NCBI GenBank assembly: GCA_973851085.1
Contig: OZ316776.1
Location: forward strand, 2,604,001-2,668,000
Direction of reading: 5' to 3'
From: Ptychomitrium polyphyllum
Lineage: Eukaryota
Length of the DNA: 64,000 nucleotides
The position numbers and the translations under genes are program-made. The notes under the pieces are model-generated. The model searched no databases. It saw only the letters and a list, made by a program, of their open reading frames with translations, and was not told the origin of the DNA. Positions within the stretch are counted from its first letter, which is position 1; the number at the start of each line of letters is the position of its first letter. Below are positions 2,309 to 58,581 of the stretch, piece after piece.

Positions 2309-5300
2309 CTACACGGTTGGGAAGGATACGTAAGGGAAGCCCATCACAGCTTCGTTCCCAGGTCTTGAGAATACAATCTGCAAATTGCGGAAAAAACACG
2401 GGCCATATGAATATGAGAACAACTCCATCTACACACTCTCAAGGACGGCTAGCATCTCTCCACTCAAAACACCAAGGCATAACAAAAATCAGAAGTTAAA
2501 AAGTACCTGTAGTACACCAAGAGTGCAAGATTTGAAACCAGCGGCGCAGTAAAAGAAGTAGTAATCCCATGTCCGGATGAATTTCTCGCCAAAACCAAGC
2601 TTCATGATTTTGCTGCACATAACAAAGCTCCATCTTGATAAGTCCAACTTCCAACTACATCATCCAAATTAACTCCAACACACAAAACACACATTTACAC
2701 GACAACCAGCGCTTACTTGTGACTCGTCTGAAATCGATCTTGCCATCTCAGGAGAGTTTCGCAGTAGTGAATGCCAATATTCTCCATGTGCTCCACACTA
2801 AATTCGTCACAAAACATAGTCGATTTCACGTCGGATAATTGCCAGCTCTCGACATGGTTTTCTGACTCAAAAACGACCTCATCCAACAGACAGTGGAAGG
2901 CTACACCTTACCAGAAGGAGGACCCGGACCCCATGGCTGCGGTAAGAGCTGCAAACGATGGCAAGCAACCGCCCGGAAAAATGTACTCTTTGATGAAGTC
3001 CGAACTTTGCCGGTAAGCATCATACCGCTCCTCTGGTATGGAAATCACCTGCCGCCAACCATGTTCGACCACACTCAGCACCAAACGCACACAACACCCT
3101 GACGTGGAACCCAATCTCGAAAGAAACTGGGTACTGTACGTACCTGGACGACGACAAGGCCATCCTTGGCAAGAAGATCATCACATCGTCTGAACCACTC
3201 TGCATAGTACTCATGTCCCACTGCCTCCAGCATCTCACTGCACATACCACAGACCATGTCATTCGGCTGTCTCCCCAACATGGCTACTGTCTCACATCCT
3301 GCAGTACTCACATTGTTCTAGGTGGTAACCCAGTATCTCCAGAGCCTACCAAGATATGATGCGGTTGAACTTGTGGTAGCTCTGTACATTGCGGTAATCC
3401 ACCAACTGGAACGTTATCTTGTCCTCCAGACGGGCCTCCTTCACAACATTCTGGGCGTACTCAAGCTGCTCCTGAGACAAGGTGATGCCAGTGTAGCGGC
3501 ATCCGGTTCGCCGCACCAGCTGGATGGCCAGAGCTCCCCACCCACTGCCAATCTCCAGCACCTCGTGTGTGCTCTCCACCCGAGCCTTCATACACGTCCA
3601 ACAGTCCGTTACACAGAGATCATCACTACTCCAGTAGGTTCCCGAAAGCTCCGAGCTTCTACTAGAGCTATCTGCCACCGCCAGATGTTGACACGTCACA
3701 TCGACATGTAGGACTTAGAACTCACGCATCAGAGTTCGGACTCCGACGGGCAGAAGGGAACAAGGAAATCATACCTTGTCAATGAGGTGGTTGATTTTCC
3801 GCAGTTGAGCGTCGATCAAGGGCTCTTCTGGTCCCTGCAAAACCAAGTCAAATACTAATCTCCACTCAACCTTCGGAACACCGTAAACCGTACACGCTCT
3901 TCCATACGTTGAGGTTAAAACCTTGAGGCGTGCTGGGGATCGAACATACCTTAAAAATAGCACAGGAGTATGTCATGGTCTCGTCAAGGAACAAAGAGAA
4001 CATGTCGTTGCTCTGTTTTCAATCACCACAACCGCGACGGTCCGTTAGTCGTTTGCACTCTCAAAAACGTTCACCTACAAGCGCGTACACCAGTCCTAGT
4101 GTTGATCCCATACCACAGTTCATCACACACACTCAGATGCAGTGCACAGCGGAAATATCTTCAGGAAAGGGGCATGCCTTGCTGCGACAAAAGCGCTGCT
4201 ACCGCTGTAACAACTCAGAAACTGTTCATCACAAAGGACAGAGAAATAGTACTAAGTCATAGTGTTGGGAGATGTTGCGGCGTGTGTTGGTAAGAGAGTT
4301 GCTGCGCATGACATGTCGTAAGTAGGACGTTGCTGAGCCCAATGCAGCTGTCAGAAGCACTGGACTCCACCAAGCCCTGAGTGTAACCAATACAACGATT
4401 TCAGTATCATCCGCTTCACTGTAGTAACTCTCCAGGTCATGTCACCGCTTGCTACTTACAATGAAATACTCCCGACCCACAGTGTTGAAACATTCTCTGG
4501 AAGGGTAAGTGGCTCAGAGACATACTTTACTGCAACTTGGTTCAGGGACAAGCGGTCAATGTCACGATTCGCAATTACAATCTGCAGAACAAACAACACC
4601 GATGTCAGATCCTTCAACACAAGAAGGCTTCGTTATCGCACACCAAGCCACTTGATGAACCACCTATTTGACTTTGTAACAGAAAAACAGACACCCGACG
4701 TTGTTCGGAGCAGCGACGAATCTCACCAGGAAGAAGTTCAGCAGACCCTCTTTGGGGTTCACGAAGGTAAAGTCCCCATCCACGTAAGCATCAGCAAGGC
4801 CCAGGTCTTGTCTTGTAGCAATCTGCTCACCACCCAACCACAACTCAACACACCATAGTTCTACATGGGCGAACGGTCCGAAAGCTCGTCCAACTTTCTC
4901 CACATCACCCATCTCTAAACGGCTCACAACACGTGCAACTCTCTCCGTGGCTGCCTTCACATATCATACTGACCTTCCAGTAAAAAGCAGGGTTCAGGAT
5001 TCGTAGGCTGCTTCGCAGAGGTGACCCTTTCTCTTCACCGAAGAAATTGAATACTGTTCCTCCAGCCTCCAACAATCTGGAGCACAAGGACTCAAAAACT
5101 CAGTCTCGTGTTGATGGATCCAAAAGCACGCAAGAAGAACATGCATCAATCCATCGTACCATGGAATCGGCCGCACACAAATCAACAGTGTGAAATAAGG
5201 AAGATGCATTAACTGGACATGTCCAGTCCGGATGAACTTCCGGAAGAAACTGGTCACCACCAAGCGCGCTGTGGATTCAAGACAGGTGGGCACCATCTGT

Positions 5301-7688
5301 TTCACAAGTGGTAATGCACTGAACTCAGCGCCAAGCAAGTCGAAAGCTGCCTCCAAGCCCGCCTGTACCAGCACCAGATATGCCAAGACCATCAGCTCTC
5401 GCGGGCAAATACTCTCCAAACCTCTGAACCAGTCACCGCCGGACTTGGAGATCAGGAACAACCAGAACTGTCACGAAGATGCAGAAACAAGGAAAGACGG
5501 AATCGAGAATGCACAGCACAGTATGAAGCACCTTAAGCCCATCTTCGTGAAAGCCGTAGCCTTGATAGGCCCCGCAAAACCATACACCTCGCTTGCCCTG
5601 AATGCTTCCAAACTCCTTCGCGGCTCTGGCTGCTGCTGGAGAAGGAACAGGATGGCTGGTCCTCCACACATCCACGACATCACTGGGCTCCTCCGCCGGA
5701 TTCAGGGTTACCAGGTACGGTTTGCCCGTATCGCCCAAATTCTGAAAGAAAACAAAAAGCACCAGTCCTCTCAATCCTCACCTACAATCACGATGACTGC
5801 AGACCTTTCTGGTCCTAGTTACTGTCGCGTTCCAAACGCCTGACGATACACCAACCATCCAGCAATACCACACAACTTCCAGCTCCTCGGTACCGATCCA
5901 GCAGACCATAAGCCAAACGACTCCCACCACGGTACAAAATCTGCTAACCTGGAGAATGTTGAGCCAGTAAGTAACGCACACTCGACCATCAGCGTCCCCT
6001 AGGAAGTTCCAAGCGCACCAAGCTGCCTGATTCCGAGGCATCAATTTGTCATCCCGGTGCAGATAAATAGTGCTGTCATGCAATCCCAAGGTGCACACAA
6101 TCACGTACACGCATTCCATGACACAGCACAATTCCCACCATCTCGATGACATGTTCACGCAGAACTCCAACACCTCGGAACAAACACACTCCGAAACTAC
6201 ACTCCATCTTCGCACAAAAGCAGCTGCTCGCATCCTAGGGGCTTCCAAACCCGCCCATACCTGGGACTGTACTGAAAAGCACCCAGAATACTCCGCTCCC
6301 CATAGCTGGCTCCTTCTCCCAGCATCTGCAGAGCATCAGGGGCATGCGATCCTACAACGCATCTGTCGAACACTTCCACCCTCCCATGGACGTCCTCTAC
6401 CTCCACACCTGATCCCGTGCACCCCAACACCCACTCTCAGCCGACTGACTACGCCTCACAACCAAACGCAGCCGCTCGCATTCTAGGCTGCGCGTTCACA
6501 GCTCCACGCTACATTCCCAACAAACGCCCGCCGTCCCCACATGCATCTCACCTTCTGAGGTGCTCCTCATCCCGGTTACTCCGCAGCTTGTCCGAACCGT
6601 CGCTCCCGCACCTTGTAGGTCTCCTACCATCTGCCACCATGTGTGTCAGTTTTCCGGCACGTGCCTCCCACCACTCACGATCGCAACACCACATACCACC
6701 AACCAACCAACCCTCCGCAGCCCCGGCACCACATGCTCCCCAAAGCATCCCCCTACCTTAGCCACGTACGCTTCGGACCGCCCCTTCACGGTCAGCCACT
6801 GTGGACGCCCAAACAGCTGCACATCCACCAACACCAACACCAACACCTCAGAAACCCCGGGCCCCCCGGAACACCCATCGATCACTCTCGCACTTCGGAT
6901 CGCTGTCACGCATGCACCATACAGCTCCGCGCCACGGTTCACCCACACGTACCTGGAGTAGATGGTGGTTCCTACAGAATGCCAGCACCGACGCCGCCGA
7001 GAAGCCCAGCACCACATCGCTCGAGCATGACCAGATCGACCCACACACCGGGACCAGGTAACAATCGCGAAACTTGCTCGAGTACTTGTGGGAGCTCACG
7101 AACTCCCCGAGCGTCTCGTCCTTCCGAATGCTCCCGTCTCCGGACTCCAACTTCTCCAGGTACCTGCCACCAGTACGTTGCCCCCAAGACCACCGCTTCA
7201 GCCGAGGTGCCCATCTCTTCCACCCTCACCGGTCCGTAGGCAGCTGCGCCATCATAAAATCGCACAATCTGTCCAAAGAGGCCCACATCGAGCGCATACC
7301 TGCCCACGTCGTCCTTGAACCGGACGATCTCCCGGAGCATCCCAAAGAAGAACGGGTTCACCATGTTGCGCTTCTGGGCGAACAGCCCGCCCAAGCTGTT
7401 GCTGCCCCACTCGCACCCTCTGCCCCCGTCCAAGCTCACGGAGAACGACATGTCCGACTCCTCCATCTCCACTCCCGCTCGCTCGAACAAGTCTACCATG
7501 TTCGGGTACGTCACCCGGTTGAACACCATGAACCCCGTGTCCAGCCCGATGCCTGCATCATGGACGGTCCGAGCATGGCCTCCGACGTAATCCTCCTTCT
7601 CGTACAGGGTCACCTCAGCGCCGGCACATGCCAGAGTCCGGGCAGCTGTGAGCCCGGCCACCCCGACCCCTACCACTGCCACCTTCAT
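2309..7688 (-). CDS. Plant-type cyclopropane fatty acid synthase-like protein (N-terminal FAD oxidoreductase + C-terminal SAM methyltransferase), copy A, 20 coding exons, 864 aa
   Basis: ATG at 7688 gives MKVAVVGVGVAGLTAA (Rossmann GxGxxG) and LDTGFMVFNRVTYPN. Later exons give WFCGAYQGYGFHEDG, RRNISQHYDLSND, VLEIGSGWG (SAM motif I), EMLEAVGHEY, FIKEYIFPGG and FIRTWDYYFFYCAAGF. Exon 1 is 7300-7688. Exons 2-19 mirror copy B (coordinate = 25224 minus B). Last exon 2309-2377 encodes IVFSRPGNEAVMGFPYVSFPTV*. Confidence 0.93.
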
Positions 7689-7755
7689 TTTGCTCTGGTG
7701 CTTTGGCTCGTCAAGAAGCTCCAAGTACTCACACCTCGACTCCAAGTTCAGCTGC
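2531..7755 (-). repeat. Left arm of 5.2-kb near-perfect inverted repeat (partner 17465-22693)
   Basis: ORFs in all six frames of the track recur with identical translation on the opposite strand at mirrored coordinates. Coordinate sums are 25224, and 25220 beyond a 4-bp indel at 7237/7238. Confidence 0.97.
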
Positions 7756-9343
7756 TATGCACAATTCAGAGCGTTAGTAGAGATTGGTACTGGCTGAGGT
7801 GATCAGGTTTCTGGTCGTACTAATGTACCGCGAGAGGCATCAGGTGCGCTGAAATAGAATTCTGGTAGGATTGCGAGGTTTAGGCTGTCGTACACCTCCA
7901 GTTTCATTTCTGAACGAAAAACTGAAACGCGGAGTTTGGTAGTTTAACACAGCATTTGTGTTTGTGGATCACGGGTATAAAAGTTCGTTGGACATGATAC
8001 TACTGATCATTTTCCTGGAGCGAGGCTGATGTCTAAGTGCAAAAGCTCTCTTTTCAACCCCGCTTATGTCAGTCAGTTCCCGCCTGCCCGATTTGAATAG
8101 TCCACTACAGTATGACCAAATAAGCTCAGAGTAATAAATTTCTTCCCCAGCACCAGGATATTCCTCACAGAACTTTTTAAAACCCTCAGAAATCTTCTGA
8201 AGGAAAAGCGATAAAAGCATCGATTAAGCAACGAATCCTGATACTATACTTGTTTGTGGGTGAGTAGAAGGACTGGACCACTTCCTTGCAACCAAACCTA
8301 ATTTTCCTGAGTTATGCTCTAACTGATCTTTATAAAGGTCTCAAGAAACTTCAGAACGATTAAAAAACAACCTGTGAGTGGATTAGCGGAACCATGGGTT
8401 CAGGCACTGCACAAGGCACACACCTGCACTCAAGAGGGCCTCTCGAAATAGTGAAGCTAATGATGTTTACAGCAAGCATCTCTCCGGAACTAAGTTCGCA
8501 TCGTGCCAGCATTTCCGGCTCTGACAAATTCTAAACCCGAAAATGTTCACAAGCTCAACAAACAACACTCTCGAGTTCATCAGCTCCTGGCGTTAATTGC
8601 CTTAAGATAGTCACATAGTATCGCGCATTTAGAATAGTTAGTAAAGAATCGCCGTCGACAAGCTCAATCGAAGCGGACGCGCCCACGTCCCCCCACTAAA
8701 TTTATCAGGTTCTCGCCTTTTCTTAACTAAGATTCCGTACTTCAAATATGGACATAGCCACAACACTTACAAAGTCACCTTCTGCAATGAGTTCCAAAAT
8801 GAAAAAGAACCTCGCTTGAAACGCAACCGGTCAGTTTCTAACTCTACAATGCGCTGATATAGACGCGCTTCCGGATCAAGTAAATTCCCCCACCTTAAAG
8901 CGGTGCGGTGATTCTACACAGGTTCAAATGCGGAAAAACAAGGTGTGCACTTCTTGACCCTCAAACCAATCTCTCTCTCCCTCAGCCCGAGCTCATACCT
9001 GAAACAGCACTCGTGATTGGAAAGCACAAAGTTATCGTAACTCGAAGGAAAACATGCTCTAGTAGAATCCAATACAACGTGTGCGCGGGGCGCGAGGCGT
9101 CAGCAGCATTGTACATAATTTCTGACTTGGTCTACAACAGAAAAAGTTTCTCCGGAAAGTGGATCCTTACACCCCAAGTGACGTGGGCAATCCCGTGGAC
9201 CCGAAAACACACACAGGTTTCAAGAAATACCAAAGCCGTGCGACGACAGCACCCAGTAGTTCTGGAACTCCTTACCGTTCTCCAACCGCGACAGCCTCTC
9301 GTTCCCCCAACAACGAAACCGCTGCAATGACGCAAGACTTCAC
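7752..9343 (-). other. Probable 5'UTR intron of CFA synthase copy A
   Basis: Minus-strand donor GAAAG|GTGAAG at 9343 and acceptor TGTGCATAGCAG|CTGAAC at 7752, about 60 nt before the ATG. A GC-rich leader exon lies upstream (~9344-9860). No transcript evidence. Confidence 0.5.
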
Positions 9344-11469
9344 CTTTCTCGCAGCTGGGTGGGCCTGGGACTCCACTGCTGTACAGAAAACACTAAAAGC
9401 AAACGACAAACCCCAAATGTGGATGCAGCTGCAAGAAAACGTAACGCAGAGGGGGGATATAGAGCAGCTGCCACACTGCAGCACTTTGAGCTGGAAATGC
9501 TGCCGCTGCGAAGCTCCACGCCTGGTGACGTAATAGGAGAAGTGGAGGAGGAGCGGTTGAGCAATCGGAGAGAGCACAGCTGCGATCCGCGGCTGCAGCG
9601 ATCGCAGCGGTGGAGCAAGCGCCCGCGACAATGCAGCAGAGTGAAGAGACCGACGAGGCAGACGCCACCCACCAGCTGAAGCGCAAGCTCAGGCTTTTGC
9701 ACTGCCCGGTTATCATTCATTCCTGATGATTTCATCCATTCGGTTCTCGTCCCTCGCTCGTGGATTCACTCTGTCGCCGTCGCACTTGAATGCCTGGCAG
9801 CGCATCCTTCAAGTGGCTCACCGGTCCCCTTCACTCCTTCAATTCCTCAATTCTTCAATTCTTCAATTCTCTGAGCCCTAACTTTCGGGCAGCCTTCCGC
9901 ACCCACCCTATTGCCGCGGACTAAAGCTTTTTCTCACCTGGGTCTCTCTCCATAAATACATATCTACTATGACCAAACTTGTTATTATCAAATCTCAACG
10001 TTGTTTGATGAAAGGGATATCTTGAAGTTGTTTTGTGGCTAGGGGACTTGCTGCTGTATTATAATGCTTTTTTAACAAGGTATTTGTAACTTTTCCTTCT
10101 AGAAGAGTGATTTCACCTTGTGAAGATATATGTCATAGTTATAAAATCTTATTTTCTTGGAAGTTGAAGGAATTTGAATTTAAGTCCATATTCTAAATTC
10201 GAATCTTTGTACATTCATTGCCACATGTTTCCACTATCATCTAATATGAGGTGAGATGATGGTAGATTATAATTCGAATAGTAGAAAATATCAAATTGGG
10301 AAGTGAAGTATGATGAGTTGGGTTTCGTCAAGTACTAGAGAATTTTACTATTACTTTCGGAGCTGAGGTGAGATGAGTGTGGGTTGCTTTAAGTAGTATA
10401 CAGTATCACTGTGGCAACTTGGAGTGGGGCAGTGATTTTCATATCGTAGAATGTAATTTTGAAGGAAAAATAAAGTTACCACAAAATGCTGGAAACGGGG
10501 AAGTGGGATGACATGGTCAATGCCAGGTGCAATGGAGGTCAGTGGAAGGAAATCCTGGAAGTACAGAACTTTTGCGTTCACACGGGTTTCATAACTAACT
10601 CGCTGTTCATGTCCATGGGGCCCACCCATCCCCCGAATTCCTCAACTTATAGTCTTTTAATTCGAAGGTGGTTTCTAAGTAGGGGGTTAATCAATCCTGG
10701 CACAGGGTTAGCTGGTTTCGAAGGTGCTGTGGACTCTAAATTATACACTAGTATTGCCATTGTCTTTTAACCACCACCAAATCAATATTTTGAACTACTA
10801 TCTTATGACAAATGATTCTCCACATGCTTTACATGAAATGTATATTTTTAATGAAAAAGAGACTTTCGTTTTTGAACTTGGATAAATAGTTAATTGTTAT
10901 TTGATACTAACATTATTTAATGCTGCAAGTTATATTTCACGAATTCTCAATTTTTGAGAGTATTGCTAGTATTCCACTGGATGGTCAATATTATTGTAAC
11001 ATTAATTTATGAAAATTTTAAATTTTCAAAATATATATGTGAAATGAGTCATTGAATTTGAATGAAGAAAATAGGAAATATAGTTACAAATATGAAATAT
11101 GTTTTACAACTCTATTATCATAAAAAGATCCCTTAGTTGAAGCTATTTACATCCATGTAAGTGACTTATAACAAGTAAAAGATAATATTCATACATTTGA
11201 AAGAAATTTAGATCTTTTCATAATGTATTGTAACTCTAATTGAAAATTGAAGATAAAAGCATAAAGTACTACTAAATATATTTATTTGAATTTTATGATT
11301 TAAAATATATCAATTTCGCATCAAATTACAAATAATTAACATATTATTTATGTTTGTTAAATACATATTTTGCAATTAAGAAAAATGTATATTTGCACTT
11401 GATTCCAATAAAGCATTTGTACTTGCTATACATACAATTACTTGTATGCAATTATTACGATTATACATC

Positions 11470-11994
11470 ATACAATATAGACTTTAAAAACCATCCATTA
11501 GCTTCTAATAGCTTCCAGTAACATTTACACACTTTCTAATAGATTTTAGCAACTTTTATAACCTTCTAAAAGCTTGCATTACCTTCTACTTCCTTTAAAA
11601 AACTTCTTAGAAGATTGTAAAGACCTTAGATTATTGTGAAGCTTTATGAAAAGGTTTTTAGAAAATACCTTATGAAACATAAGCTTCATAGTATGAATAA
11701 GAAGCAAAATGAGATACATTTTAGTTGTACCAATGCAAATTGTGGAGCACATCTATTGTATTGCCTTATTTATAATTCTTGCAATAATTTTTGTTATCCA
11801 ATAGCCCATTGGAATTTGTTTTTGAAACCATATCTTGTCTATGTTTTTATTTCTTGTGTTTTTAAAGTTAACAATATTTTGTTTCCTATGTACTTTAAGG
11901 AAAAATAAGACTAAAATAAGACTTAATGAACTTATACTTGTATAAACTTCAACACTCTCTTTAATTTAGAGCTTTTAATTTACTTGTGCTAACA
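11470..11994. mobile_element. Highly degenerate LTR-like remnant in the spacer
   Basis: CTTCTA/AAGCTT/CTTCTTAGAAG-rich words resemble the Gypsy LTRs at 42-58 kb, and the segment ends in GTGCTAACA. No clear 5' end or TSD. Confidence 0.3.
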
Positions 11995-12715
11995 GATTAT
12001 TGGTTTTTTTATTTTATTTTATTTTGTAATAAATATGCTACAATATTATGTTGTAAATTTCTAAATACATGATTAGGAGCTTATTCAACTTCAAAAATTC
12101 TACAAAAGCTAATTTGATAACAATGATAAGTACATATTTAACAAACAACAATTTCACCTTTTATTAAAAAAAAAGTGTTATTTCCATAGATGAATTTGGT
12201 ACAAATGCTAATGCTTAAAGTCCATGCCTTCCTTCTAAACAATAAGATTGGATGCAAGTGTAATTGATTAATTGTTTTAATATTAATTTGTGGCTATTGG
12301 AACAAATGTCAACATTGACAAAGACAATGAATTATATTTTAACAATTTGTCTTCTGCTTATAGATTCTAAAATGCAAGTCCAAAGCTATTATGCAATATT
12401 TGTTCATAACTTTCAATAAAAAGAAATTATACCAAAGAGTCAATTATAATAAATCAACCATCAATGTTGTATAATTTGTCATTTGCTAACAAATTTTGAA
12501 GTTTTAATTGTATATTTCCTTCTGATATTTAATTTTTAGTTTTAAATTTATTCAAAAAATTGGTTTGATATTTATTTGGAATCATCTTAAATATATATCA
12601 ATTGTATTATGGTATCAAACTGACACTAATTGTTACAACACACAATTAGTATATAATTGATGTATTTAAGGTGGATTCCAACTGACGTTGAATCATCACA
12701 AAAGTATTAACATTC

Positions 12716-12721
<6 letters not shown>

Positions 12722-12785
<64 letters not shown>
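12722..12785. repeat. (TA)32 microsatellite
   Basis: Perfect TA run read directly. Confidence 0.97.
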
Positions 12786-12787
<2 letters not shown>

Positions 12788-15700
12788 TTTTTTATTTCCT
12801 ATTGTTACTGCAGTTCTGGAAATGATTATGATTTCATATTAACATGGTTTTCATGGAAACCTTCTTTAAATTTGATTTGTATAAGAAAAGTGTTGGAAAT
12901 GTATTGGGTAGACCCCAAGTTTTGTTCGACATGCAATCAATCACACATCGTGCAAATGCAGTGTGGGACAGTTCATGAGCATGGGAATCTAGGCAGTGAA
13001 CCACTTCCAATAGTACACTTTGTGCTTAGATTCCAACTTCCCATGGCTGGACCATGTAGATCAAACAGGGTCTTAGTAGGCCCTGAAGCACCACATTGTA
13101 GCAAAGGCCAGTTATTCCGCAATAGAAGCAGTACAGTACTGGAAACTGTCATAATGCTTGGTCATTCAGCTCCTCTTTAGAAGAAGATTTTAATTCAGAG
13201 TTCAGACTCAAGCGTACTGCTGGGAAGTTTTTTGAGTCCCAAACTGAACCTTACAAATAAGGGCTTGCCACCTAGGCTTCACAATAGCCTACAGTTTCCA
13301 CGTTTGAATCAAATAGATTTTGAATGCTTGTGAAAAGTATCTCTAACCTCTCTCTCGCTCCCATTAGTATTCATTTTTTAGGTGTAGATGCCAACAGCTA
13401 CGCATCTTGAGAATGAACTGAAGGCGCTTCTAGATCTAAGTCTTTCAAAATCTTCAGTTCTCAGGCAAAGTTAGGTGGAGTGTCATGTGAGGAAAATGTG
13501 GCACACACAGTTACAGGCTCACAGCAGCAAAAGTTACATGTTGATGCGTTTGGGACCTTTTGATTTTTGTAAAATTAGTTGTGAGTCTTGTGACCCATCA
13601 CATTGCACCATGTGAGGAGTGCTGTGAATCTGCCGTCCACCAGCAGGGAAGCAGCCCTTCTCTACCACATGGGAAATTTTCAGCCTTCAGGAGGTGTTAC
13701 TAACTTTCTGTGGTGGAAATGTCATCTGCCAGTTGTCATTGAATAAAACTTTAGATCCAAATTTTAATAGGTCCAAGTCAAGGTCTTATATGGGATATCC
13801 ACCCACCAACTCTACATGGATGAAGGCTGTTACTCTTAAATCATACTGGCTTCCGCTTGGAGCTTTCTTTTTAGAACGATGAATCATTTGCTAGTCAGGT
13901 GCTTCACTTACTCCCTTCTATGGAATGTGGTCTGAGATAACTACCATAGTAACTTGATGCCTACATTTGACAATCCAAAGCTATGAAGGATGATGTAATA
14001 TCTTTGCAGAATGGGGAGTCCATTGCATGTCTATCTTACATTGTATGTCCAAGATCTCTAATTAAAATATATATTTGATTCTGCTTCTACCTGGTGAACC
14101 AGTTCCCTCTGATTATGTGTGATACTCATCCAACACTATATTTTGCATGTTTGTTGTAAGTTGCATTGAGCAACAGAGTTCAGCATACCCAATCAACCTT
14201 TTTATGCCAGTGTATTCATTCAACAGAATCTTCCCCAGTGTCAAGCAAGCTCATCTGTAGTAGTTGTTCCTTTTCCAATGTACTACTAAACCTCTTTTAT
14301 TCCCCTTTCAGTTGTAATTCCCTGGGGATGAAGTTGCTAGAGGAAGGTTGCCAGAATTGTCAGTGAATTGTCGTTCTTCCCTACTGTTGTGCACATGCCA
14401 CTTTGTCATCCATTGTCCAAAGTGGGAGAATACAACTTCGGGTAACTCTCACTTGGATGCTGTAACTTTTTCAGTGAACGCATATTCTCGTAGAACAATT
14501 ATGTGAACACTCATGTTGCAGTTGATATTTTTAGGGTGAGGAGTAGGGTGCACGTGAGACTGGGTGGTCACAGAAGAATCCTATAACCTGAGGCTCCAAA
14601 CAATTTGGCTCACTCAAAACATTGTTAGCAGAAAACTAGACGTTCAAGTAGAGCATGCTTGCACCTGGAAGCAGATGCCAATCACCGAACCAGAGAACTA
14701 GCAATGACATTCAAGATTCATTTCACACACATCATTCAAACTTTGTTCATGGAGGATGTGGAAAGTTGGTGCGGTTACGGAACTCTTTTAACACATTGAT
14801 AGCTTATCAAAGTGCAAGCAGACAGAGACATTTACCTCGAAGATGGGAAGTACTTGCGGAGCAGTGAAGGAATCCACATGATCTGAATTTTTGGTCAAAA
14901 AAGAGAAAGGTTGGCACTTTCTTGAGTGGATGCTTGCAGCTCGATCTGTGAACTGGTGGCGAGCCACATTTTTCTCATTCATGCTTTCGTCCTTGACTCC
15001 AAACAGAAGTTTCTGCTGCAGCATCAAAGGAGCATTCTCAGCAGGAGCACATCAGATATCCAGACTCCAGAAAATCCTCCGAAAACAATAAGTGGAAGAA
15101 GTAGTTTGGCTACTCATAAAATTGTGGGTCGATTCTAATCTTCTCAAGCAAGTTTTATATTAAAAATTGCATTTCTCACCTAAAAATCTCCAAAAAACCT
15201 TTAAAATGTGCATACATATGAATCTCAATTTTGATAAGCTTCAAACAATATCGGATAAGATAAAGATGGTTGGATCCCATTAATCCCCATTTGCACACAG
15301 TGAGAAAAATATGGCTCTAATGTGAACACAGCAATCAAAAATCTATACCTGTAGTAGATGCAACTCGGTTAACGTCCAACCATCCACCTTTCGACCACTT
15401 CAAATGCCGACAATTTTACTCGTGGAATCATTTCTCACCTTAAAATAGAAAACAAAGTCACAAAAATTCCGATATCCACCACAAGACGCGTGGATTGGCC
15501 CCTGGTTATATTACTGGGGGGTGATGCTGTTCCCGATTGGAATCAAATCGCTTTCCAAAAGCTATGAAAACAGACCTTAAATTATCTCACATAGCCTGGC
15601 GACGGCACTGGGATCTCCATTGCCAGCTTTCCTTCTCCAGTGTAATTCCAAAGACTCAGAATAGACAAACGATGACTTCGATGATGTTTACCTGAAGTGG

Positions 15701-16193
15701 GAAATTTCAAAGTTTGTGATAGATGAAAGTCGTCGAAAATGGATGCTAGACCATGTTGGCATGAGCTTTGGCTGAGGTTCAGCTAACACTGTTGGGCAGC
15801 GACTCTTCTACTTAGTTGTTGCTTTCATTCCTGCAGAAGAGTCGAGGTGCCAGCTCCTTCCGCCACAGGAATCACCTCCTCATTGCCGGATTCCCACTTG
15901 CAACACTGCCTTCGATTGCTATGAACAACACTACTGTCCTCCTGCTCATGTCCACTTTTCCAATACTCGTGCCTTTGTTCTTCAAGTTGGGAGCTTTCTC
16001 GAATCTTCCAGGTGGGGCATTGATTGTGGAGTGGTAATTTTGTTTACGTTTCTGATTTCCTCAACTCGTCTTGCAGTTGCATTTCCTGACAAAGAGCTCA
16101 ACTTTTTTGAGATTGACTGGTGTAGTAAGGAACACAGGTGTTCTAGAATTGTGTAGAATAGTAGTGAAGAGGAAGCTGTCGCATTTGCAGCTG

Positions 16194-17468
16194 GTGAGTG
16201 GATCTGCTCGAGTTTTGAGGCTTCAGTATGTGCCTGCTTAATTGCTAATTCGACTCGAAGGATCGATCGAGTGTTATAAACAGCTCTTGAATAACAAAGC
16301 TTTTGAGAATATAGTTTGTAGTAATTTTGGGATAATTGGGGTGGACCTCTGGGGAGTGATCAACTCAGTTCTGCAAAGTCGTCCCTATCATCCGTGTGTC
16401 AGAAAGCTCGAACAGAAATTTAATTGTACAAGGGTGGAGGGTGTGACCGGTGCAAGCTTCTGCATCCTTTGTGTCTCTTTCTCGCACGGTTATTTGCATG
16501 AGGTTACTCTGAAGCATTGAGTGCTTCTAGACTTTTGTACTGCAATCACAAGTGTGCATGCGAGGTTTGACAGAGTCAACAAAGGCTCATCATTTGCATA
16601 GCACTCTGTTACCTCACAAGACCCAGTCTTTCCTCTCCCGGAGCTGCAGAATTGCAACCTTTTGAGTTGGAACTATACAACGCTAGAAAGCATTGCGATT
16701 GCTAAACTCTGAGGATGGTATGGGTAGGACGTCCATGATTTATCACCAATAACGTGACCTAGCTAGACGATTGACCTTGTAGTTGCCCTGGCTATGTCAA
16801 GTTCCGCATAAAAGAATCTTAAGAGTACATATTGTCGAAGAACAGAGCATTAGTAGGAGAATTAGTAAGGGAAGACGTGGGCGTGCTTACCTTGCATGAG
16901 CAATGTGAACTCTGGGCGGGGAATCCGTTATTTCTAAATGTGAACCACGCCGTCACTGTTGCTACGAAATCAGCTCGTCGCATCTCTCTGAAATTTTAGG
17001 GATTGAATATGACGAGCTCTAGCAATTTCTGGTGGCTCAGTCGTCAGAGCAGCCCGATTCTCTCTTTTAAAGCGTTCTGAAGTTCTTAGTGATGTAGGCC
17101 CAGCCAGAACTAAAAGCACTAGATTTATAACCCTCGTTCCTTGTAGGACAAATTAACCTGCCATTATATACCAGGTTAATGATGCCAATCTGCTTCTTCG
17201 ATATTTCCTGAATTGCACAAGATTTAAAACTTTAAAAACTTCCTAAAATTAATGGCACAACTTTTCCTGAAAAATCTATAGCATAATTGGGAAGTGAAAT
17301 GCATCCGCAGCTCTTAAACCAGCTCATTATTAATAAGAACTATTTCTCGAAAAATAGATCCCACCACAACCGTAGGTTCGCACACTGCTTTACTTTCAGC
17401 TGAACGCGGAAGGCCTGGACCGCATGGCACTTGACATCTTCACTAGACCTCTGAACTGTGCATTGCAG
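16194..17468 (+). other. Probable 5'UTR intron of CFA synthase copy B
   Basis: Donor GCTG|GTGAGT at 16194 and acceptor TGTGCATTGCAG|CTGAAC at 17468. Patchy homology to the copy A leader intron. Confidence 0.5.
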
Positions 17469-20400
17469 CTGAACTTGGAGTCGAGGTGTGAGTACTTGGA
17501 GCTTCTTGACGAGCCAAAGCACCAGAGCAAAATGAAGGTGGCAGTGGTAGGGGTCGGGGTGGCCGGGCTCACAGCTGCCCGGACTCTGGCATGTGCCGGC
17601 GCTGAGGTGACCCTGTACGAGAAGGAGGATTACGTCGGAGGCCATGCTCGGACCGTCCATGATGCAGGCATCGGGCTGGACACGGGGTTCATGGTGTTCA
17701 ACCGGGTGACGTACCCGAACATGGTAGACTTGTTCGAGCGAGCGGGAGTGGAGATGGAGGAGTCGGACATGTCGTTCTCCGTGAGCTTGGACGGGGGCAG
17801 AGGGTGCGAGTGGGGCAGCAACAGCTTGGGCGGGCTGTTCGCCCAGAAGCGCAACATGGTGAACCCGTTCTTCTTTGGGATGCTCCGGGAGATCGTCCGG
17901 TTCAAGGACGACGTGGGCAGGTATGCGCTCGATGTGGGCCTCTTTGGACAGATTGTGCGATTTTATGATGGCGCAGCTGCCTGCAGACGGACCGGTGAGG
18001 GTGGAAGAGATGGGCACCTCGGCTGAAGCGGTGGTCTTGGGGGCAACGTACTGGTGGCAGGTACCTGGAGAAGTTGGAGTCCGGAGACGGGAGCATTCGG
18101 AAGGACGAGACGCTCGGGGAGTTCGTGAGCTCCCACAAGTACTCGAGCAAGTTTCGCGATTGTTACCTGGTCCCGGTGTGTGGGTCGATCTGGTCATGCT
18201 CGAGCGATGTGGTGCTGGGCTTCTCGGCGGCGTCGGTGCTGGCATTCTGTAGGAACCACCATCTACTCCAGGTACGTGTGGGTGAACCGTGGCGCGGAGC
18301 TGTATGGTGCATGCGTGACAGCGATCCGAAGTGCGAGAGTGATCGATGGGTGTTCCGGGGGGCCCGGGGTTTCTGAGGTGTTGGTGTTGGTGTTGGTGGA
18401 TGTGCAGCTGTTTGGGCGTCCACAGTGGCTGACCGTGAAGGGGCGGTCCGAAGCGTACGTGGCTAAGGTAGGGGGATGCTTTGGGGAGCATGTGGTGCCG
18501 GGGCTGCGGAGGGTTGGTTGGTTGGTGGTATGTGGTGTTGCGATCGTGAGTGGTGGGAGGCACGTGCCGGAAAACTGACACACATGGTGGCAGATGGTAG
18601 GAGACCTACAAGGTGCGGGAGCGACGGTTCGGACAAGCTGCGGAGTAACCGGGATGAGGAGCACCTCAGAAGGTGAGATGCATGTGGGGACGGCGGGCGT
18701 TTGTTGGGAATGTAGCGTGGAGCTGTGAACGCGCAGCCTAGAATGCGAGCGGCTGCGTTTGGTTGTGAGGCGTAGTCAGTCGGCTGAGAGTGGGTGTTGG
18801 GGTGCACGGGATCAGGTGTGGAGGTAGAGGACGTCCATGGGAGGGTGGAAGTGTTCGACAGATGCGTTGTAGGATCGCATGCCCCTGATGCTCTGCAGAT
18901 GCTGGGAGAAGGAGCCAGCTATGGGGAGCGGAGTATTCTGGGTGCTTTTCAGTACAGTCCCAGGTATGGGCGGGTTTGGAAGCCCCTAGGATGCGAGCAG
19001 CTGCTTTTGTGCGAAGATGGAGTGTAGTTTCGGAGTGTGTTTGTTCCGAGGTGTTGGAGTTCTGCGTGAACATGTCATCGAGATGGTGGGAATTGTGCTG
19101 TGTCATGGAATGCGTGTACGTGATTGTGTGCACCTTGGGATTGCATGACAGCACTATTTATCTGCACCGGGATGACAAATTGATGCCTCGGAATCAGGCA
19201 GCTTGGTGCGCTTGGAACTTCCTAGGGGACGCTGATGGTCGAGTGTGCGTTACTTACTGGCTCAACATTCTCCAGGTTAGCAGATTTTGTACCGTGGTGG
19301 GAGTCGTTTGGCTTATGGTCTGCTGGATCGGTACCGAGGAGCTGGAAGTTGTGTGGTATTGCTGGATGGTTGGTGTATCGTCAGGCGTTTGGAACGCGAC
19401 AGTAACTAGGACCAGAAAGGTCTGCAGTCATCGTGATTGTAGGTGAGGATTGAGAGGACTGGTGCTTTTTGTTTTCTTTCAGAATTTGGGCGATACGGGC
19501 AAACCGTACCTGGTAACCCTGAATCCGGCGGAGGAGCCCAGTGATGTCGTGGATGTGTGGAGGACCAGCCATCCTGTTCCTTCTCCAGCAGCAGCCAGAG
19601 CCGCGAAGGAGTTTGGAAGCATTCAGGGCAAGCGAGGTGTATGGTTTTGCGGGGCCTATCAAGGCTACGGCTTTCACGAAGATGGGCTTAAGGTGCTTCA
19701 TACTGTGCTGTGCATTCTCGATTCCGTCTTTCCTTGTTTCTGCATCTTCGTGACAGTTCTGGTTGTTCCTGATCTCCAAGTCCGGCGGTGACTGGTTCAG
19801 AGGTTTGGAGAGTATTTGCCCGCGAGAGCTGATGGTCTTGGCATATCTGGTGCTGGTACAGGCGGGCTTGGAGGCAGCTTTCGACTTGCTTGGCGCTGAG
19901 TTCAGTGCATTACCACTTGTGAAACAGATGGTGCCCACCTGTCTTGAATCCACAGCGCGCTTGGTGGTGACCAGTTTCTTCCGGAAGTTCATCCGGACTG
20001 GACATGTCCAGTTAATGCATCTTCCTTATTTCACACTGTTGATTTGTGTGCGGCCGATTCCATGGTACGATGGATTGATGCATGTTCTTCTTGCGTGCTT
20101 TTGGATCCATCAACACGAGACTGAGTTTTTGAGTCCTTGTGCTCCAGATTGTTGGAGGCTGGAGGAACAGTATTCAATTTCTTCGGTGAAGAGAAAGGGT
20201 CACCTCTGCGAAGCAGCCTACGAATCCTGAACCCTGCTTTTTACTGGAAGGTCAGTATGATATGTGAAGGCAGCCACGGAGAGAGTTGCACGTGTTGTGA
20301 GCCGTTTAGAGATGGGTGATGTGGAGAAAGTTGGACGAGCTTTCGGACCGTTCGCCCATGTAGAACTATGGTGTGTTGAGTTGTGGTTGGGTGGTGAGCA

Positions 20401-22693
20401 GATTGCTACAAGACAAGACCTGGGCCTTGCTGATGCTTACGTGGATGGGGACTTTACCTTCGTGAACCCCAAAGAGGGTCTGCTGAACTTCTTCCTGGTG
20501 AGATTCGTCGCTGCTCCGAACAACGTCGGGTGTCTGTTTTTCTGTTACAAAGTCAAATAGGTGGTTCATCAAGTGGCTTGGTGTGCGATAACGAAGCCTT
20601 CTTGTGTTGAAGGATCTGACATCGGTGTTGTTTGTTCTGCAGATTGTAATTGCGAATCGTGACATTGACCGCTTGTCCCTGAACCAAGTTGCAGTAAAGT
20701 ATGTCTCTGAGCCACTTACCCTTCCAGAGAATGTTTCAACACTGTGGGTCGGGAGTATTTCATTGTAAGTAGCAAGCGGTGACATGACCTGGAGAGTTAC
20801 TACAGTGAAGCGGATGATACTGAAATCGTTGTATTGGTTACACTCAGGGCTTGGTGGAGTCCAGTGCTTCTGACAGCTGCATTGGGCTCAGCAACGTCCT
20901 ACTTACGACATGTCATGCGCAGCAACTCTCTTACCAACACACGCCGCAACATCTCCCAACACTATGACTTAGTACTATTTCTCTGTCCTTTGTGATGAAC
21001 AGTTTCTGAGTTGTTACAGCGGTAGCAGCGCTTTTGTCGCAGCAAGGCATGCCCCTTTCCTGAAGATATTTCCGCTGTGCACTGCATCTGAGTGTGTGTG
21101 ATGAACTGTGGTATGGGATCAACACTAGGACTGGTGTACGCGCTTGTAGGTGAACGTTTTTGAGAGTGCAAACGACTAACGGACCGTCGCGGTTGTGGTG
21201 ATTGAAAACAGAGCAACGACATGTTCTCTTTGTTCCTTGACGAGACCATGACATACTCCTGTGCTATTTTTAAGGTATGTTCGATCCCCAGCACGCCTCA
21301 AGGTTTTAACCTCAACGTATGGAAGAGCGTGTACGGTTTACGGTGTTCCGAAGGTTGAGTGGAGATTAGTATTTGACTTGGTTTTGCAGGGACCAGAAGA
21401 GCCCTTGATCGACGCTCAACTGCGGAAAATCAACCACCTCATTGACAAGGTATGATTTCCTTGTTCCCTTCTGCCCGTCGGAGTCCGAACTCTGATGCGT
21501 GAGTTCTAAGTCCTACATGTCGATGTGACGTGTCAACATCTGGCGGTGGCAGATAGCTCTAGTAGAAGCTCGGAGCTTTCGGGAACCTACTGGAGTAGTG
21601 ATGATCTCTGTGTAACGGACTGTTGGACGTGTATGAAGGCTCGGGTGGAGAGCACACACGAGGTGCTGGAGATTGGCAGTGGGTGGGGAGCTCTGGCCAT
21701 CCAGCTGGTGCGGCGAACCGGATGCCGCTACACTGGCATCACCTTGTCTCAGGAGCAGCTTGAGTACGCCCAGAATGTTGTGAAGGAGGCCCGTCTGGAG
21801 GACAAGATAACGTTCCAGTTGGTGGATTACCGCAATGTACAGAGCTACCACAAGTTCAACCGCATCATATCTTGGTAGGCTCTGGAGATACTGGGTTACC
21901 ACCTAGAACAATGTGAGTACTGCAGGATGTGAGACAGTAGCCATGTTGGGGAGACAGCCGAATGACATGGTCTGTGGTATGTGCAGTGAGATGCTGGAGG
22001 CAGTGGGACATGAGTACTATGCAGAGTGGTTCAGACGATGTGATGATCTTCTTGCCAAGGATGGCCTTGTCGTCGTCCAGGTACGTACAGTACCCAGTTT
22101 CTTTCGAGATTGGGTTCCACGTCAGGGTGTTGTGTGCGTTTGGTGCTGAGTGTGGTCGAACATGGTTGGCGGCAGGTGATTTCCATACCAGAGGAGCGGT
22201 ATGATGCTTACCGGCAAAGTTCGGACTTCATCAAAGAGTACATTTTTCCGGGCGGTTGCTTGCCATCGTTTGCAGCTCTTACCGCAGCCATGGGGTCCGG
22301 GTCCTCCTTCTGGTAAGGTGTAGCCTTCCACTGTCTGTTGGATGAGGTCGTTTTTGAGTCAGAAAACCATGTCGAGAGCTGGCAATTATCCGACGTGAAA
22401 TCGACTATGTTTTGTGACGAATTTAGTGTGGAGCACATGGAGAATATTGGCATTCACTACTGCGAAACTCTCCTGAGATGGCAAGATCGATTTCAGACGA
22501 GTCACAAGTAAGCGCTGGTTGTCGTGTAAATGTGTGTTTTGTGTGTTGGAGTTAATTTGGATGATGTAGTTGGAAGTTGGACTTATCAAGATGGAGCTTT
22601 GTTATGTGCAGCAAAATCATGAAGCTTGGTTTTGGCGAGAAATTCATCCGGACATGGGATTACTACTTCTTTTACTGCGCCGCTGGTTTCAAA
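17465..22693 (+). repeat. Right arm of 5.2-kb near-perfect inverted repeat (partner 2531-7755)
   Basis: Reverse complement of 2531-7755. The only difference seen is an extra GCAG at 17983-17986 in intron 1. Confidence 0.97.
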
Positions 22694-22921
22694 AGTTGTA
22701 CACTTGGAGTCGTACAGGTAAGGTTGAGTTTTCGTCAGCTTCTACAGTGAGTCTTAGAATGGCCATGGTGCATGCAGTGATTTGCAACTTGTGAATCTTT
22801 GTTAGAGGTTTCTGATTTGGGATTTGCAACTGCTTTTGTTCGTTGGTTGCAGATTGTATTCTCAAGGCCTGGTAATGAGTCTGTGATGGGTTGCCCGTAC
22901 TTGTCCTTCCCAACTGCGTAA
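17532..22921 (+). CDS. Plant-type cyclopropane fatty acid synthase-like protein (FAD oxidoreductase + SAM methyltransferase), copy B, 20 coding exons, 864 aa
   Basis: Exons read from GT-AG boundaries: 17532-17920, 18061-18271, 18408-18467, 18594-18672, 18816-18963, 19152-19275, 19483-19692, 19862-20010, 20148-20250, 20402-20497, 20643-20698, 20848-20971, 21212-21274, 21390-21449, 21639-21874, 21987-22080, 22176-22312, 22427-22507, 22612-22717, 22853-22921. Total 2595 nt = 864 aa + TAA. Same motifs as copy A; C-terminus IVFSRPGNESVMGCPYLSFPTA*. Confidence 0.93.
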
Positions 22922-23639: not shown

Positions 23640-25607
23640 TCACTCCGGTTCAATTGTAACATTTCGTAGAAACTCGGCACCTTTTTCAGGAGAAACTGAG
23701 TTGATATAACACCCGCTGCCCATTTCAAAACCTCCTGGAGTTGCCAGCCGTGGGGCGATGTCGAGGTACCAGTGATAGTAAGGTGAGTTAGAGTGCTCCT
23801 TTCCTAGCGGAGCTGTCTGAAGCGTATAATTGTACGGTGGATATCCAAATGCCAAGTCCATCTTCCGTAGTGTCAATTTCAGCATCTTCGCCATAGCTTG
23901 AATCTGTAATAAAAAGAACAAGTCAGTTTTAGCAGCGCAGTTCTTCATGAACTAAACAAACTAAACCAGACAAGACACCCCCATATGTGACACACTGGCA
24001 ACTATGATGAAGTTTCAAGTAGAAAAGATTATTATCATAAAATTACATAGCGACAGTGAATTAGTCACTCCTTCATGGCCCGATACCCGTGAGGAATCTC
24101 TTTAGCCTGTTTACTGACATGTATGGATCACTTTACATCTATTCCTGCAGTGTGTATTTACCTCAACTTCGCCGATCAATTCAAAATTTGAGGAATGGCG
24201 CTTGGGCACCAACCAAGTCTCATAAGGGTACGCTGGTGCATATGGAGCAATGGTGACGAAGTGATCATCCTCGTCGATCAGACGGCTGCGTACCGATTGT
24301 GTATCATGTTCTACAACGTCACATAGGATGCACCGCTTGTGATTGTCGTAGTACTCTTGAGCGCTGCGAAGTTCAGTTATCTTGTTGTGGGTTATAACTG
24401 GAAGTGCAATCATTTGGCTGTGAGAATGGGTCATTGATGCACCTGCTCTATTACCCCTGTTTTTAAACACCTGCCAAAGCGCATCTCATCATTTAGGTCA
24501 ATGCCGACATGCTCAAACTGCCAAGCTAGTATTCATTTGCAACCGTCTAAAGACTCAGAAGGTTATTCTACACAGGACTGTAGGTATCAATGTATCAACC
24601 CTAGTTCAATACCATGCTATCCTCCGGAGACCGCATGTACCCAACAATAAGGTTTACATTTCAGGCTATGATGCAGGGGATAATCAAGAGCTTCCTTGAT
24701 CAGAAATACAAGGACAAGGAACAACAATACGTACCTGACAAAATTTGAAACGTGAGTCACTTTGGAACCAACTTATCCGTGCTTGATAAGCTTTCAATAC
24801 CTGCAACACAGCCAATTCAGTTTAGAGTTAAGCAGCTGCTTTCTTCACACATCAACATTGAGGCTTGGAAATAGTAAAACCTGCACTGCGCTTCCCTCAT
24901 CATTCAGTTGTTCGTTGGACACAAGTAAATAATAAATACCATTTTGTAAACTCAGAGTTTAAATTTCACTTCTGCTTTTAACTCATATGGCAAAAGAGAC
25001 AAATTTCAGGACACTTCATTCTAATTGGGTTAAAATGCTAATACCAAGCACAATTCTAATCACTCTCTTGCTCTTGCATTGCTTCGTACCCACTGTTAGC
25101 AAGGACCAGCATCCCTCAACCGAAACCTAAAACACAAGACTGGCCAGAACTCTGCGTTCAAACCCCAATAACTGGAAAATTTTACGAAGGGTTCTTCGAT
25201 CAAACTACCTCTGCGACGTGAGAAGCTGGAAGCTCTGGTATAGTCATTTGATGGTTGGGCGTTTCAATCACAACTTCGTGACTTCCAAAACCTGGCAGTC
25301 TGCACTCATCATACACTGTCCCCTCACCCGTCGGTTGCAAGTCACAGGAATCCATGGACACGGCTGGATACTTATTCACGATCACACGGACCCGCCAGTC
25401 GGACGCATCGGCTTGGCCACCATCCCGAATCGCGAAAATCTCGTGCCCATTCGAAAGCTCAAAACCAGGGCAAAAGGCACACGGACCCGGGTTACACCCC
25501 TCCTTCCGCTGGCTATCCGAAGTCTGAAAATCAGAAGGGCGCTTCCCTCGTTTGTCTGAAATCGTAATCCATCTCTGACGAAGCTGGTCGTGCCGAAGCT
25601 CCGACAT
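23640..25607 (-). CDS. GalT-like HIT-family nucleotidyltransferase (ADP-glucose phosphorylase / galactose-1-phosphate uridylyltransferase-like), 4 exons
   Basis: Exons 25607-25209 (MSELRHDQLRQRW...RGKRPSDF, CAFCPG, VRVIVNKYPA, GFGSHEVVIETPNH), 24800-24735, 24470-24162 (FKNRGNRAGASMTHSHSQ with the HxHxQ catalytic motif; CILC; PYETWLVPKRH) and 23903-23640 (YHWYLDIAPRLATPGGFEMGSGCYINSVSPE). All introns are GT-AG and in frame. Confidence 0.92.
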
Positions 25608-34908: not shown

Positions 34909-34946
34909 ATATATATATATATATATATATACAGAGAGAGAGAGAG
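34909..34946. repeat. Compound (AT)11-AC-(AG)7 microsatellite upstream of RUS3
   Basis: Read directly; lies about 200 bp upstream of the RUS3 ATG. Confidence 0.9.
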
Positions 34947-35145
34947 ATTGAGATTGGTGGACTGGTTCTAGCTGCATTCTTTATGGACGGACTGCAACTG
35001 GAGTAGGTGAAGTCGGTGACTATGTTTTGTGGAGGTGCATTTGCATAGGTAGGATTTTGGAACCCTAGGAACTCGATCGGAGGTGGAATGGTGTGAAGGA
35101 GAGGAGTGGAGTGGTGCGATTGACGAGTCGGCTACTGTATCAGAG

Positions 35146-42100: not shown

Positions 42101-42276
42101 CTAAGAATTAGCTTCCAAAGAGCTACTGATTAATAAGAATTGATACAAAGACAAAAACAAAGGCATGATACAATATGATCTACAAATTGTATTGGCAAGA
42201 CTAAAATACACCTTGTTTTGCCTTGTATTTATACTATGATACTTATATTTCTTAGGATACTTCTAAAGGAGCTTTC

Positions 42277-58346: not shown

Positions 58347-58581
58347 CTTTTTGTGAAGATTAAGAATGTTTAAGAAATTTATGAAACCTTCTTAAGAAGT
58401 TTTTCAAAGAGGTGGAATGGCTATGGACGCATTGAAAATATACTAAAAAATTATTATAATGTATTTGAAGGTTCTAGCAGATTCTAAAGACTATGTTGTA
58501 TGATCTATATCTGTGACAATGACAATTATAATATATGAGTAGGTTACAATGGCTATTTAATTATGCATTGATTATTGTTTA

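What the first reader, a model, noticed from the sequence alone, without database searches (positions are those of the whole stretch)
2309..22921. Gene palindrome: old divergent CFA-synthase duplicates share a 5.2-kb near-identical tract with sharp edges (arm-to-arm gene conversion)
Seen: 2531-7755 is the reverse complement of 17465-22693 across 18 introns, with only one 4-bp indel noticed. Identity ends mid-exon 19. Right after GCTGGTTTCAAA, copy A reads TCT TGC ACT CTT GGT GTA CTA CAG and copy B reads AGT TGT ACA CTT GGA GTC GTA CAG, so most codons differ synonymously, including a TCT/AGT serine switch. Intron 19 (129 vs 135 nt) and the 3'UTRs do not align, while exon 20 is still homologous. 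Inference: the duplication is ancient and the identical tract was overwritten recently by conversion between the arms, as in concerted evolution of palindromic genes. A simple recent duplication cannot explain homologous but diverged sequence on both sides of the tract.
Basis: partly seen in the sequence, partly recalled or inferred. Interest (0 to 1): 0.88.

Follow-up and report, generated by a model that had tools for sequence, protein, structure and literature searches.

The report
Moss gene palindrome kept identical
Two old, back-to-back copies of a lipid-modifying enzyme gene in a moss are letter-for-letter the same over 5.2 kb and unusually GC-rich there, likely because the copies overwrite each other by recombination; this is a clear new example of a known process.

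Summary
2531-7755 is the reverse complement of 17465-22693, with 0 substitutions and one 4-bp indel. Both copies are intact 20-exon, 864-aa cyclopropane-synthase-like genes of a moss. Past the edge, 17 of 30 sense codons differ (Ks about 0.85 on 24 sites).

Assembly collapse of diverged arms is unlikely: run X1 gives one 5,225-bp contig with exactly these ends at about double depth (same sample possible). The pair looks old. A second organism (X3) has A-like and B-like 3' ends yet differs 5-16% inside the tract. Ceratodon has a syntenic, unhomogenised pair beside the same GALT-like gene.

This points to GC-biased conversion.

This is a known kind of thing: near-identical tandem genes in Physcomitrium, and palindrome arms. 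The scan noted similar tracts in other genomes, but not on this DNA.

The parts
2309..7688 (-). Copy A: cyclopropane-fatty-acid-synthase-like gene (N-terminal FAD oxidoreductase + C-terminal CMAS methyltransferase), 20 exons, 864 aa, intact
   Evidence: Model; Pfam on exons of B, identical in A; homologues
17532..22921 (+). Copy B: same structure, 864 aa, intact; differs from A at 5 residues, all after position 834
2531..7755 (-). Arm A of the identical tract (5,225 bp): 67 bp upstream of the ATG to codon 834
   Evidence: one X1 contig of exactly this extent, 0 differences, depth 82.5
17465..22693 (+). Arm B of the identical tract (5,229 bp); introns 1-18 average 0.51 GC, introns 1-4 0.60-0.61
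17983..17986 (+). The only arm-to-arm difference: 4 extra bases in intron 1 of B; not seen in the X1 or X2 contigs (bubble removed, or assembly error)
2309..2530 (-). Unconverted 3' tail of A: last 24 nt of exon 19, intron 19 (129 nt), exon 20
22694..22921 (+). Unconverted 3' tail of B: last 24 nt of exon 19, intron 19 (135 nt), exon 20
7756..17464 (.). Spacer, 9,709 bp, unique; holds the two different upstream regions (promoters and 5'-UTR introns inferred); no Pfam hit in the 50 spacer ORFs scanned; about 50 bp next to each arm still align
23640..25607 (-). GALT-like (galactose-1-phosphate uridylyltransferase family) neighbour, used as synteny anchor and GC control; not part of the palindrome

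Best explanation
Two head-to-head copies of a cyclopropane-synthase-like gene share an identical 5.2-kb tract, likely because these old duplicates repair each other by GC-biased gene conversion between the arms. Shown: the identity, the sharp edges, the diverged tails, the doubled depth, the raised GC. Inferred: a break in one arm is repaired from the other arm 9.7 kb away; mismatches are resolved more often to G/C; the edges are frozen where sequence became too different to pair (the probable 5'-UTR intron upstream, intron 19 downstream). The last full homogenisation was likely under about 50,000-225,000 years ago (assumed rates). Within this explanation I put 0.65 on repeated conversion, probably with a later extension over the middle exons, and 0.35 on one long overwrite. 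Net effect: two near-identical proteins under two different upstream regions and 3' ends.
For: (a) 0 substitutions in about 3,330 near-neutral sites (2,656 intron, 605 synonymous, 67 UTR) against pS 0.51 (12 of 24 sites; Ks 0.85, lower 95% bound 0.37) straight after the edge. (b) X1: one contig of 5,225 bp on 2531-7755, depth 82.5 vs 40.8, 43.6 and 54.4 on single-copy contigs; X2: 801-937 vs 303-342. (c) Organism B (X3) covers A's downstream flank (1421-1926) and upstream region (8484-9823). It also has a contig with the same intron-19 joint as copy B, whose loose end, read by eye, has B's stop codon, last residue and a B-like 3' UTR. Its 5 listed pieces inside the tract differ from the window by 5-16%. 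At 5070, 5267 and 5283 two X3 contigs share a base that neither arm has. (d) Ceratodon: GALT-like M758_2G060400 lies beside synthases 060500 and 060600; in strain R40 the tags are 117600, 117900, 118200. (e) GC: tract introns 0.51 (16 of 18 at 0.44 or more) vs 0.33-0.43 for all 17 neighbour introns measured, 0.41-0.42 for intron 19, and 0.40 in two distant single-copy homologues. Window-lineage replacements that can be classed are 19 AT>GC vs 4 GC>AT (p=0.003; 17 of 40 were neutral, mixed or multi-step), against 34:36 pooled in four other lineages of the gene (Fisher p=0.007).
Against: X1 and X2 are one sample and may be the source of the assembly; contigs drop bubbles, so a few hidden arm differences are possible (the 4-bp indel itself is absent from them). 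X2 depth is 2.3-3.1 times the single-copy level, above 2. X3 contigs are unlinked and the tables were cut (228 pieces not shown); a third, about 80% identical paralogue exists in organism A (X1 record 4), so X3's second diverged contigs may belong to it. In X3 the 5' part of the gene shows only single-copy depth (12-16), which does not show shared 5' homogenisation there. The protein tree leaves window, Ceratodon A and Ceratodon B unresolved, so an independent Ceratodon duplication is not excluded; AU tests by halves are marginal (p=0.041 and 0.047) and Ceratodon B is a long branch. The GALT control for amino-acid bias is small (4:3). The X3 base-change bias (396:163 overall vs 14:12 in hand-counted flank rows) is not significant as a contrast (p=0.074).
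Confidence: 0.85

Rival explanations
1. Assembly or polishing artefact: the arms really differ at many sites and the consensus was collapsed.
For: Zero substitutions in 5.2 kb is extreme. Logan contigs drop variants, and X1/X2 may be the assembly's own sample.
Against: One contig with ends exactly at 2531 and 7755 at about double depth, and no second diverged contig over the tract, although laying at 80% did pick up the third paralogue and B's exon 20. The assembly keeps a 4-bp arm difference. A few hidden differences would not change the reading.
Confidence: 0.05
2. One recent copy-and-replace event not guided by ongoing homology (template switching or partial inverted duplication) put 5.2 kb of one gene in front of an old paralogue's last exons.
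For: Edges are abrupt; only about 50 bp of homology remain upstream; X3 may hold a copy with unalignable introns over exons 7-14.
Against: Both junctions fall in register inside homologous sequence, the 3' one in frame within exon 19, as homology-directed repair predicts. X3 has double-depth contigs of its own over about 2550-3540 (27-37 vs 12-16). One event would not raise intron GC.
Confidence: 0.07
3. A simple recent whole-gene inverted duplication followed by fast change of the 3' end, or identity kept by selection.
For: The two proteins are 99.4% identical. The near-identical PpCESA6/7 pair is read as a recent tandem duplication in PMC13672439 (passages).
Against: 18 introns and 605 synonymous sites are identical while half of the synonymous sites after the edge differ and intron 19 no longer aligns. 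A B-like 3' end exists in an organism 5-16% diverged.
Confidence: 0.03

Closest known systems
Near-identical tandemly arrayed genes of Physcomitrium patens (e.g. PpCESA6/7)
   Same: Neighbouring moss paralogues almost identical including introns (PMC13672439, passages). Concerted evolution by gene conversion has been suggested for them (PMC3045890, passage citing Lang et al. 2008, which I did not see; PMC3729371, passages). That many lie on opposite strands is recalled from Rensing et al. 2008, not seen.
   Different: Here the tract has mapped edges, a diverged in-frame tail that dates the pair, a second organism and a measured GC shift. PMC13672439 has 0 occurrences of 'gene conversion' and treats CESA6/7 as a recent duplication.
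Palindrome arms on primate X/Y and the willow W chromosome
   Same: Arm identity above 99% kept by conversion; arms more GC-rich than flanks, with GC-biased replacements (PMC8981503, abstract). Test by interspecies differences without arm differences and by read depth (PMC7023750, passages).
   Different: Much smaller (5.2-kb arms, one gene, 9.7-kb spacer); edges cut through the gene. Probably autosomal: the syntenic Ceratodon tags are on chromosome 2 (that this is an autosome is recalled).
Plant cyclopropane fatty acid synthases (Sterculia SfCPS, cotton GhCPS1-3)
   Same: About 400-aa FAD-binding oxidase-like extension fused to a SAM-dependent CPS domain (PMC3132707, passages; Pfam).
   Different: Activity untested. 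GhCPS3 gave no detectable product, and none was found in Arabidopsis, so the substrate of the moss enzyme is open.
Ceratodon purpureus chromosome-2 pair (M758_2G060500/060600; KC19_2G117900/118200)
   Same: Same gene order next to the GALT-like gene in both strains.
   Different: 87% identical, grouping by locus across strains. The GALT-side copy has an altered SAM-binding motif (residues 636, 637, 640; motif label recalled). Orientation unknown.

Membership tests
Palindrome arms under gene conversion (concerted evolution) | Inverted arms more than 99% identical | tested here: met
   0 substitutions, one 4-bp indel in 5,225 bp
Palindrome arms under gene conversion (concerted evolution) | Two real copies (about double read depth) | tested here: met
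   X1 82.5 vs 40.8-54.4; X2 801-937 vs 303-342; contigs only, one sample
Palindrome arms under gene conversion (concerted evolution) | Duplication much older than arm identity implies | tested here: met
   Ks about 0.85 outside vs 0 inside; both 3'-end types in X3; Ceratodon synteny
Palindrome arms under gene conversion (concerted evolution) | Copies group by species inside the tract and by locus outside | tested here: inconclusive
   X3 contigs unlinked and tables cut; protein tree unresolved
Palindrome arms under gene conversion (concerted evolution) | Raised GC and AT>GC replacement bias in the arms | tested here: met
   Introns 0.51 vs 0.39; replacements 19:4, p=0.003; no close orthologue DNA as control
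Sex-chromosome palindromes | Located in a non-recombining sex-linked region | not tested
   No genome held; synteny with Ceratodon chromosome-2 tags argues against
Plant cyclopropane fatty acid synthases | N-terminal FAD oxidase-like domain fused to CMAS domain, intact reading frame | tested here: met
   PF01593 E=8e-17 (exon 1), PF02353 E=2e-16 (exon 15); 864 aa
Plant cyclopropane fatty acid synthases | Makes cyclopropane fatty acids | not testable with these tools
   Needs an assay; some plant members are inactive in tests (PMC3132707, passages)
Physcomitrium-type near-identical tandem genes | Adjacent paralogues nearly identical including introns | tested here: met
   No Pfam hit in 50 spacer ORFs; 18 introns, one indel

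The most novel reading that the evidence does not exclude
An autosomal single-gene palindrome in a haploid-dominant plant, where arm-to-arm GC-biased conversion has lifted intron GC from about 0.39 to 0.51-0.60 and pushed amino-acid changes into the enzyme (14:0 towards GC in the N-terminal half). The tract later spread across already diverged introns and erased a paralogue that in Ceratodon kept diverging and altered its SAM motif. Moss inverted pairs would then be a natural system to measure conversion bias without heterozygosity, and to watch duplicates escape or be pulled back.
Probability: 0.35. Interest if true: 0.6.

Novelty: new member of a known kind. Interest (0 to 1): 0.38.

Why it matters
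It turns a suggestion in the moss literature (near-identical tandem genes are kept so by conversion) into a case with mapped edges, an internal date and a converted versus unconverted species contrast. It warns that such pairs look young by Ks and collapse in short-read assemblies. If the GC bias holds against close orthologues, it shows recombination bias shaping a moss protein. It does not reveal a new mechanism.

Tried and rejected
No whole genome is held, so other palindromes and the third paralogue's locus could not be read. No RNA holder was listed. X4 holds next to nothing of the stretch. Organism B was seen only against arm A and its flanks, so its B-side flanks and the ancestral state of the 4-bp indel stay open. 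An automatic splice-site search gave a wrong model and was replaced by hand-set boundaries. A metagenome scan gave 29 loci; I examined 13 of them: distant homologues, each with one gene copy, no inverted partner and no GALT-like hit in the DNA held, useful only as a GC control. Strain-polymorphic residues in the Ceratodon pair gave no clear recent tract. mRNA-templated conversion was rejected because 18 introns are copied. Intervening spacer genes: 0 Pfam hits in 50 ORFs; short exons could be missed. A dedicated inversion switch was not supported; contigs cannot show spacer orientation. Ten literature searches listed no paper on this locus; Lang 2008 and Rensing 2008 were not seen, and the one other P. 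patens genome paper I asked for is not held, so absence from print is not shown. PMC2817420 (passages) was not relevant. No supplements were read.
Full report
OBSERVATION. Self-BLAST finds one long inverted match, 2310-7784 against 22920-17436. Base by base, 2531-7755 equals the reverse complement of 17465-22693 with no substitution and one 4-bp indel in intron 1. Hand-set boundaries give two intact 20-exon, 864-aa genes, head to head, 9,709 bp apart between arms. The tract runs from 67 bp before the ATG to codon 834. After it, 17 of 30 sense codons differ (12 silent, 5 replacing); pS is 0.51 on 24 sites, Ks about 0.85 (lower 95% bound 0.37), Ka 0.11. Exon 20 aligns (z=22), the 3' UTR weakly (z=3.0), intron 19 not at all (z=0.6); upstream only about 50 bp align (z=7.1).

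WHAT THE GENE IS. Exon 1 hits the flavin oxidoreductase family and exon 15 the CMAS methyltransferase family, the layout of plant cyclopropane fatty acid synthases (PMC3132707, passages). The nearest named proteins are from Ceratodon purpureus and Physcomitrium patens (84-89.5% over the full length), so the window is from a moss. Enzyme activity is untested.

IS IT REAL? Two runs of one sample hold 99% of the words. Laid on 500-12500 at 80% likeness, X1 gives a single contig of 5,225 bp on exactly 2531-7755 with 0 differences, at depth 82.5 against 40.8, 43.6 and 54.4 on single-copy contigs; X2 gives two contigs over the same span at 801 and 937 against 303-342. That is what an exact two-copy repeat gives in a de Bruijn graph. 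The same laying did detect B's diverged exon 20 and a third paralogue at about 80%, so a diverged arm would have shown. Limits: these are contigs, not reads; the sample may be the assembly's source; bubbles are removed (the 4-bp indel is not seen); X2's ratio exceeds 2; X1's spacer depth is only 17.4.

IS THE PAIR OLD? Three lines say yes. First, the silent divergence just outside the edge. Second, organism B (run X3) covers A's flanks (1421-1926, 8484-9823) and has a contig with the same intron-19 joint as copy B; its loose end, read by eye, carries B's stop codon and last residue and a B-like 3' UTR. The 5 X3 pieces listed inside the tract differ from the window by 5-16%, where the arms differ by nothing, and at three listed sites two X3 contigs share a base that neither arm has. 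Third, in Ceratodon the GALT-like gene M758_2G060400 sits beside synthases 060500 and 060600, and R40 shows the same order, as in the window. The Ceratodon copies are 87% identical and group by locus across strains. Against: X3 contigs are unlinked and most table rows were hidden; the 13-protein tree leaves window, Ceratodon A and B unresolved. By halves, the C-half rejects a Ceratodon A+B clade (p=0.047) and the N-half rejects grouping everything against B (p=0.041), a mosaic that fits old duplication plus N-terminal conversion but is marginal and involves a long branch.

ONE EVENT OR MANY? X3 has double-depth contigs (27-37 vs 12-16) over about 2550-3540, suggesting its own identical block in exons 15-19. 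Over exons 7-14 it shows one contig set that aligns through introns and another that does not. A loose end of the second set, read by eye, encodes Asn476 and Ile481, found only in Ceratodon's GALT-side copy among the aligned moss proteins, but also Cys475 and Lys478 as in P. patens; so it may be B's orthologue or the third paralogue. If it is B, the window's lineage extended the tract across diverged introns after the split. In X3 the 5' part shows single-copy depth only, which does not help either way.

GC BIAS. Prompted by two earlier notes on other genomes, I tested composition. Tract introns average 0.51 GC (introns 1-4: 0.60-0.61), intron 19 0.41-0.42, the 17 neighbour introns measured 0.33-0.43 (14 of them with approximate bounds), and two distant single-copy homologues 0.40. 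GC3 is 0.82-0.84 in codons 1-216 against 0.54 in GALT exon 1. Of 40 window-lineage replacements, 19 need AT>GC and 4 GC>AT (p=0.003; 14:0 in the N-half, 5:4 in the C-half; 17 unclassed); four other lineages of the gene pool to 34:36 (Fisher p=0.007); GALT gives 4:3, too few to weigh. The X3 base-change counts point the same way (396:163) but mix paralogues, and the contrast with the flank is not significant (p=0.074). This matches the pattern in primate X palindromes (PMC8981503, abstract) and needs many rounds of conversion. A moss-wide 5' GC gradient or a local allelic hotspot is not excluded without close orthologue DNA.

MECHANISM (inferred). Breaks in one arm are repaired from the other, favouring G/C at mismatches. 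Tracts must start and end in pairing sequence, so the edges froze beside the probable 5'-UTR intron and 24 nt short of intron 19. With 0 changes in about 3,330 near-neutral sites, the last sweep is under about 48,000 years at 9.4e-9 per site per year (derived from Ks 0.85 = 45 My in PMC1952061, passages) or 225,000 years at an assumed 2e-9. The two copies make almost the same protein under different upstream regions and 3' ends.

COMPARISON AND VERDICT. Near-identical tandem genes are a described trait of P. patens, with conversion suggested as the cause (PMC3045890, PMC3729371, PMC13672439; passages), and converted palindrome arms are known in plants (PMC7023750, passages). Ten searches listed no paper on this locus, but key subscription papers were not seen. 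The scan's earlier notes hold 8 similar cases in other genomes and none on this genome or sequence. Verdict: real, well supported, a new member of a known kind; conversion 0.85; interest 0.38.

Noticed in passing
window 7726-12500: X1 depth on the spacer contig is 17.4 against 40.8-54.4 on other single-copy contigs, while X2 shows no such drop (303 vs 320-342). Unexplained; could be read loss next to the palindrome or the (TA)n run.
   Followed up: no
window 12721-12786: A (TA)n run of about 66 bp lies about 140 bp from the palindrome's centre (12610).
   Followed up: no
outside the window (X1 record 4, X2 record 11; laid on 3434-3581 and 3948-4018): A third, about 80% identical synthase paralogue exists elsewhere in organism A at single-copy depth.
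   Followed up: no
window 17414-17468 and 7752-7807: The 5' edge sits at a probable 5'-UTR intron acceptor; about 50 bp upstream of it still align between the copies. No RNA to confirm.
   Followed up: partly
Ceratodon P0128 / P0004: The GALT-side Ceratodon copy has many changes in the methyltransferase domain, including the SAM motif, in both strains: possible new function or decay after escape from conversion.
   Followed up: partly
window 42000-58600: Decayed Ty3/gypsy-type retrotransposon pieces (gag, RNase H, integrase, SH3 hits) with old inverted similarity, 43917-47923 vs 49121-53125 at 74%.
   Followed up: no
window 30200-39120 and about 63000: Neighbour genes by Pfam: zf-U1/OCRE protein, ROOT UVB SENSITIVE family gene, ARD family gene.
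   Followed up: no
clusters 4-5: Liverworts also carry nearby synthase duplicates by locus tag (Marchantia Mp_7g04870 and 7g05270; Riccia R1flu_023621/22/28, R1sor_001346/47), so local duplication of this gene recurs in bryophytes.
   Followed up: no
L002, L004 vs window: Distant homologues have extra introns within what are exons 1, 2 and 15 here, so intron loss or gain differs between lineages.
   Followed up: no
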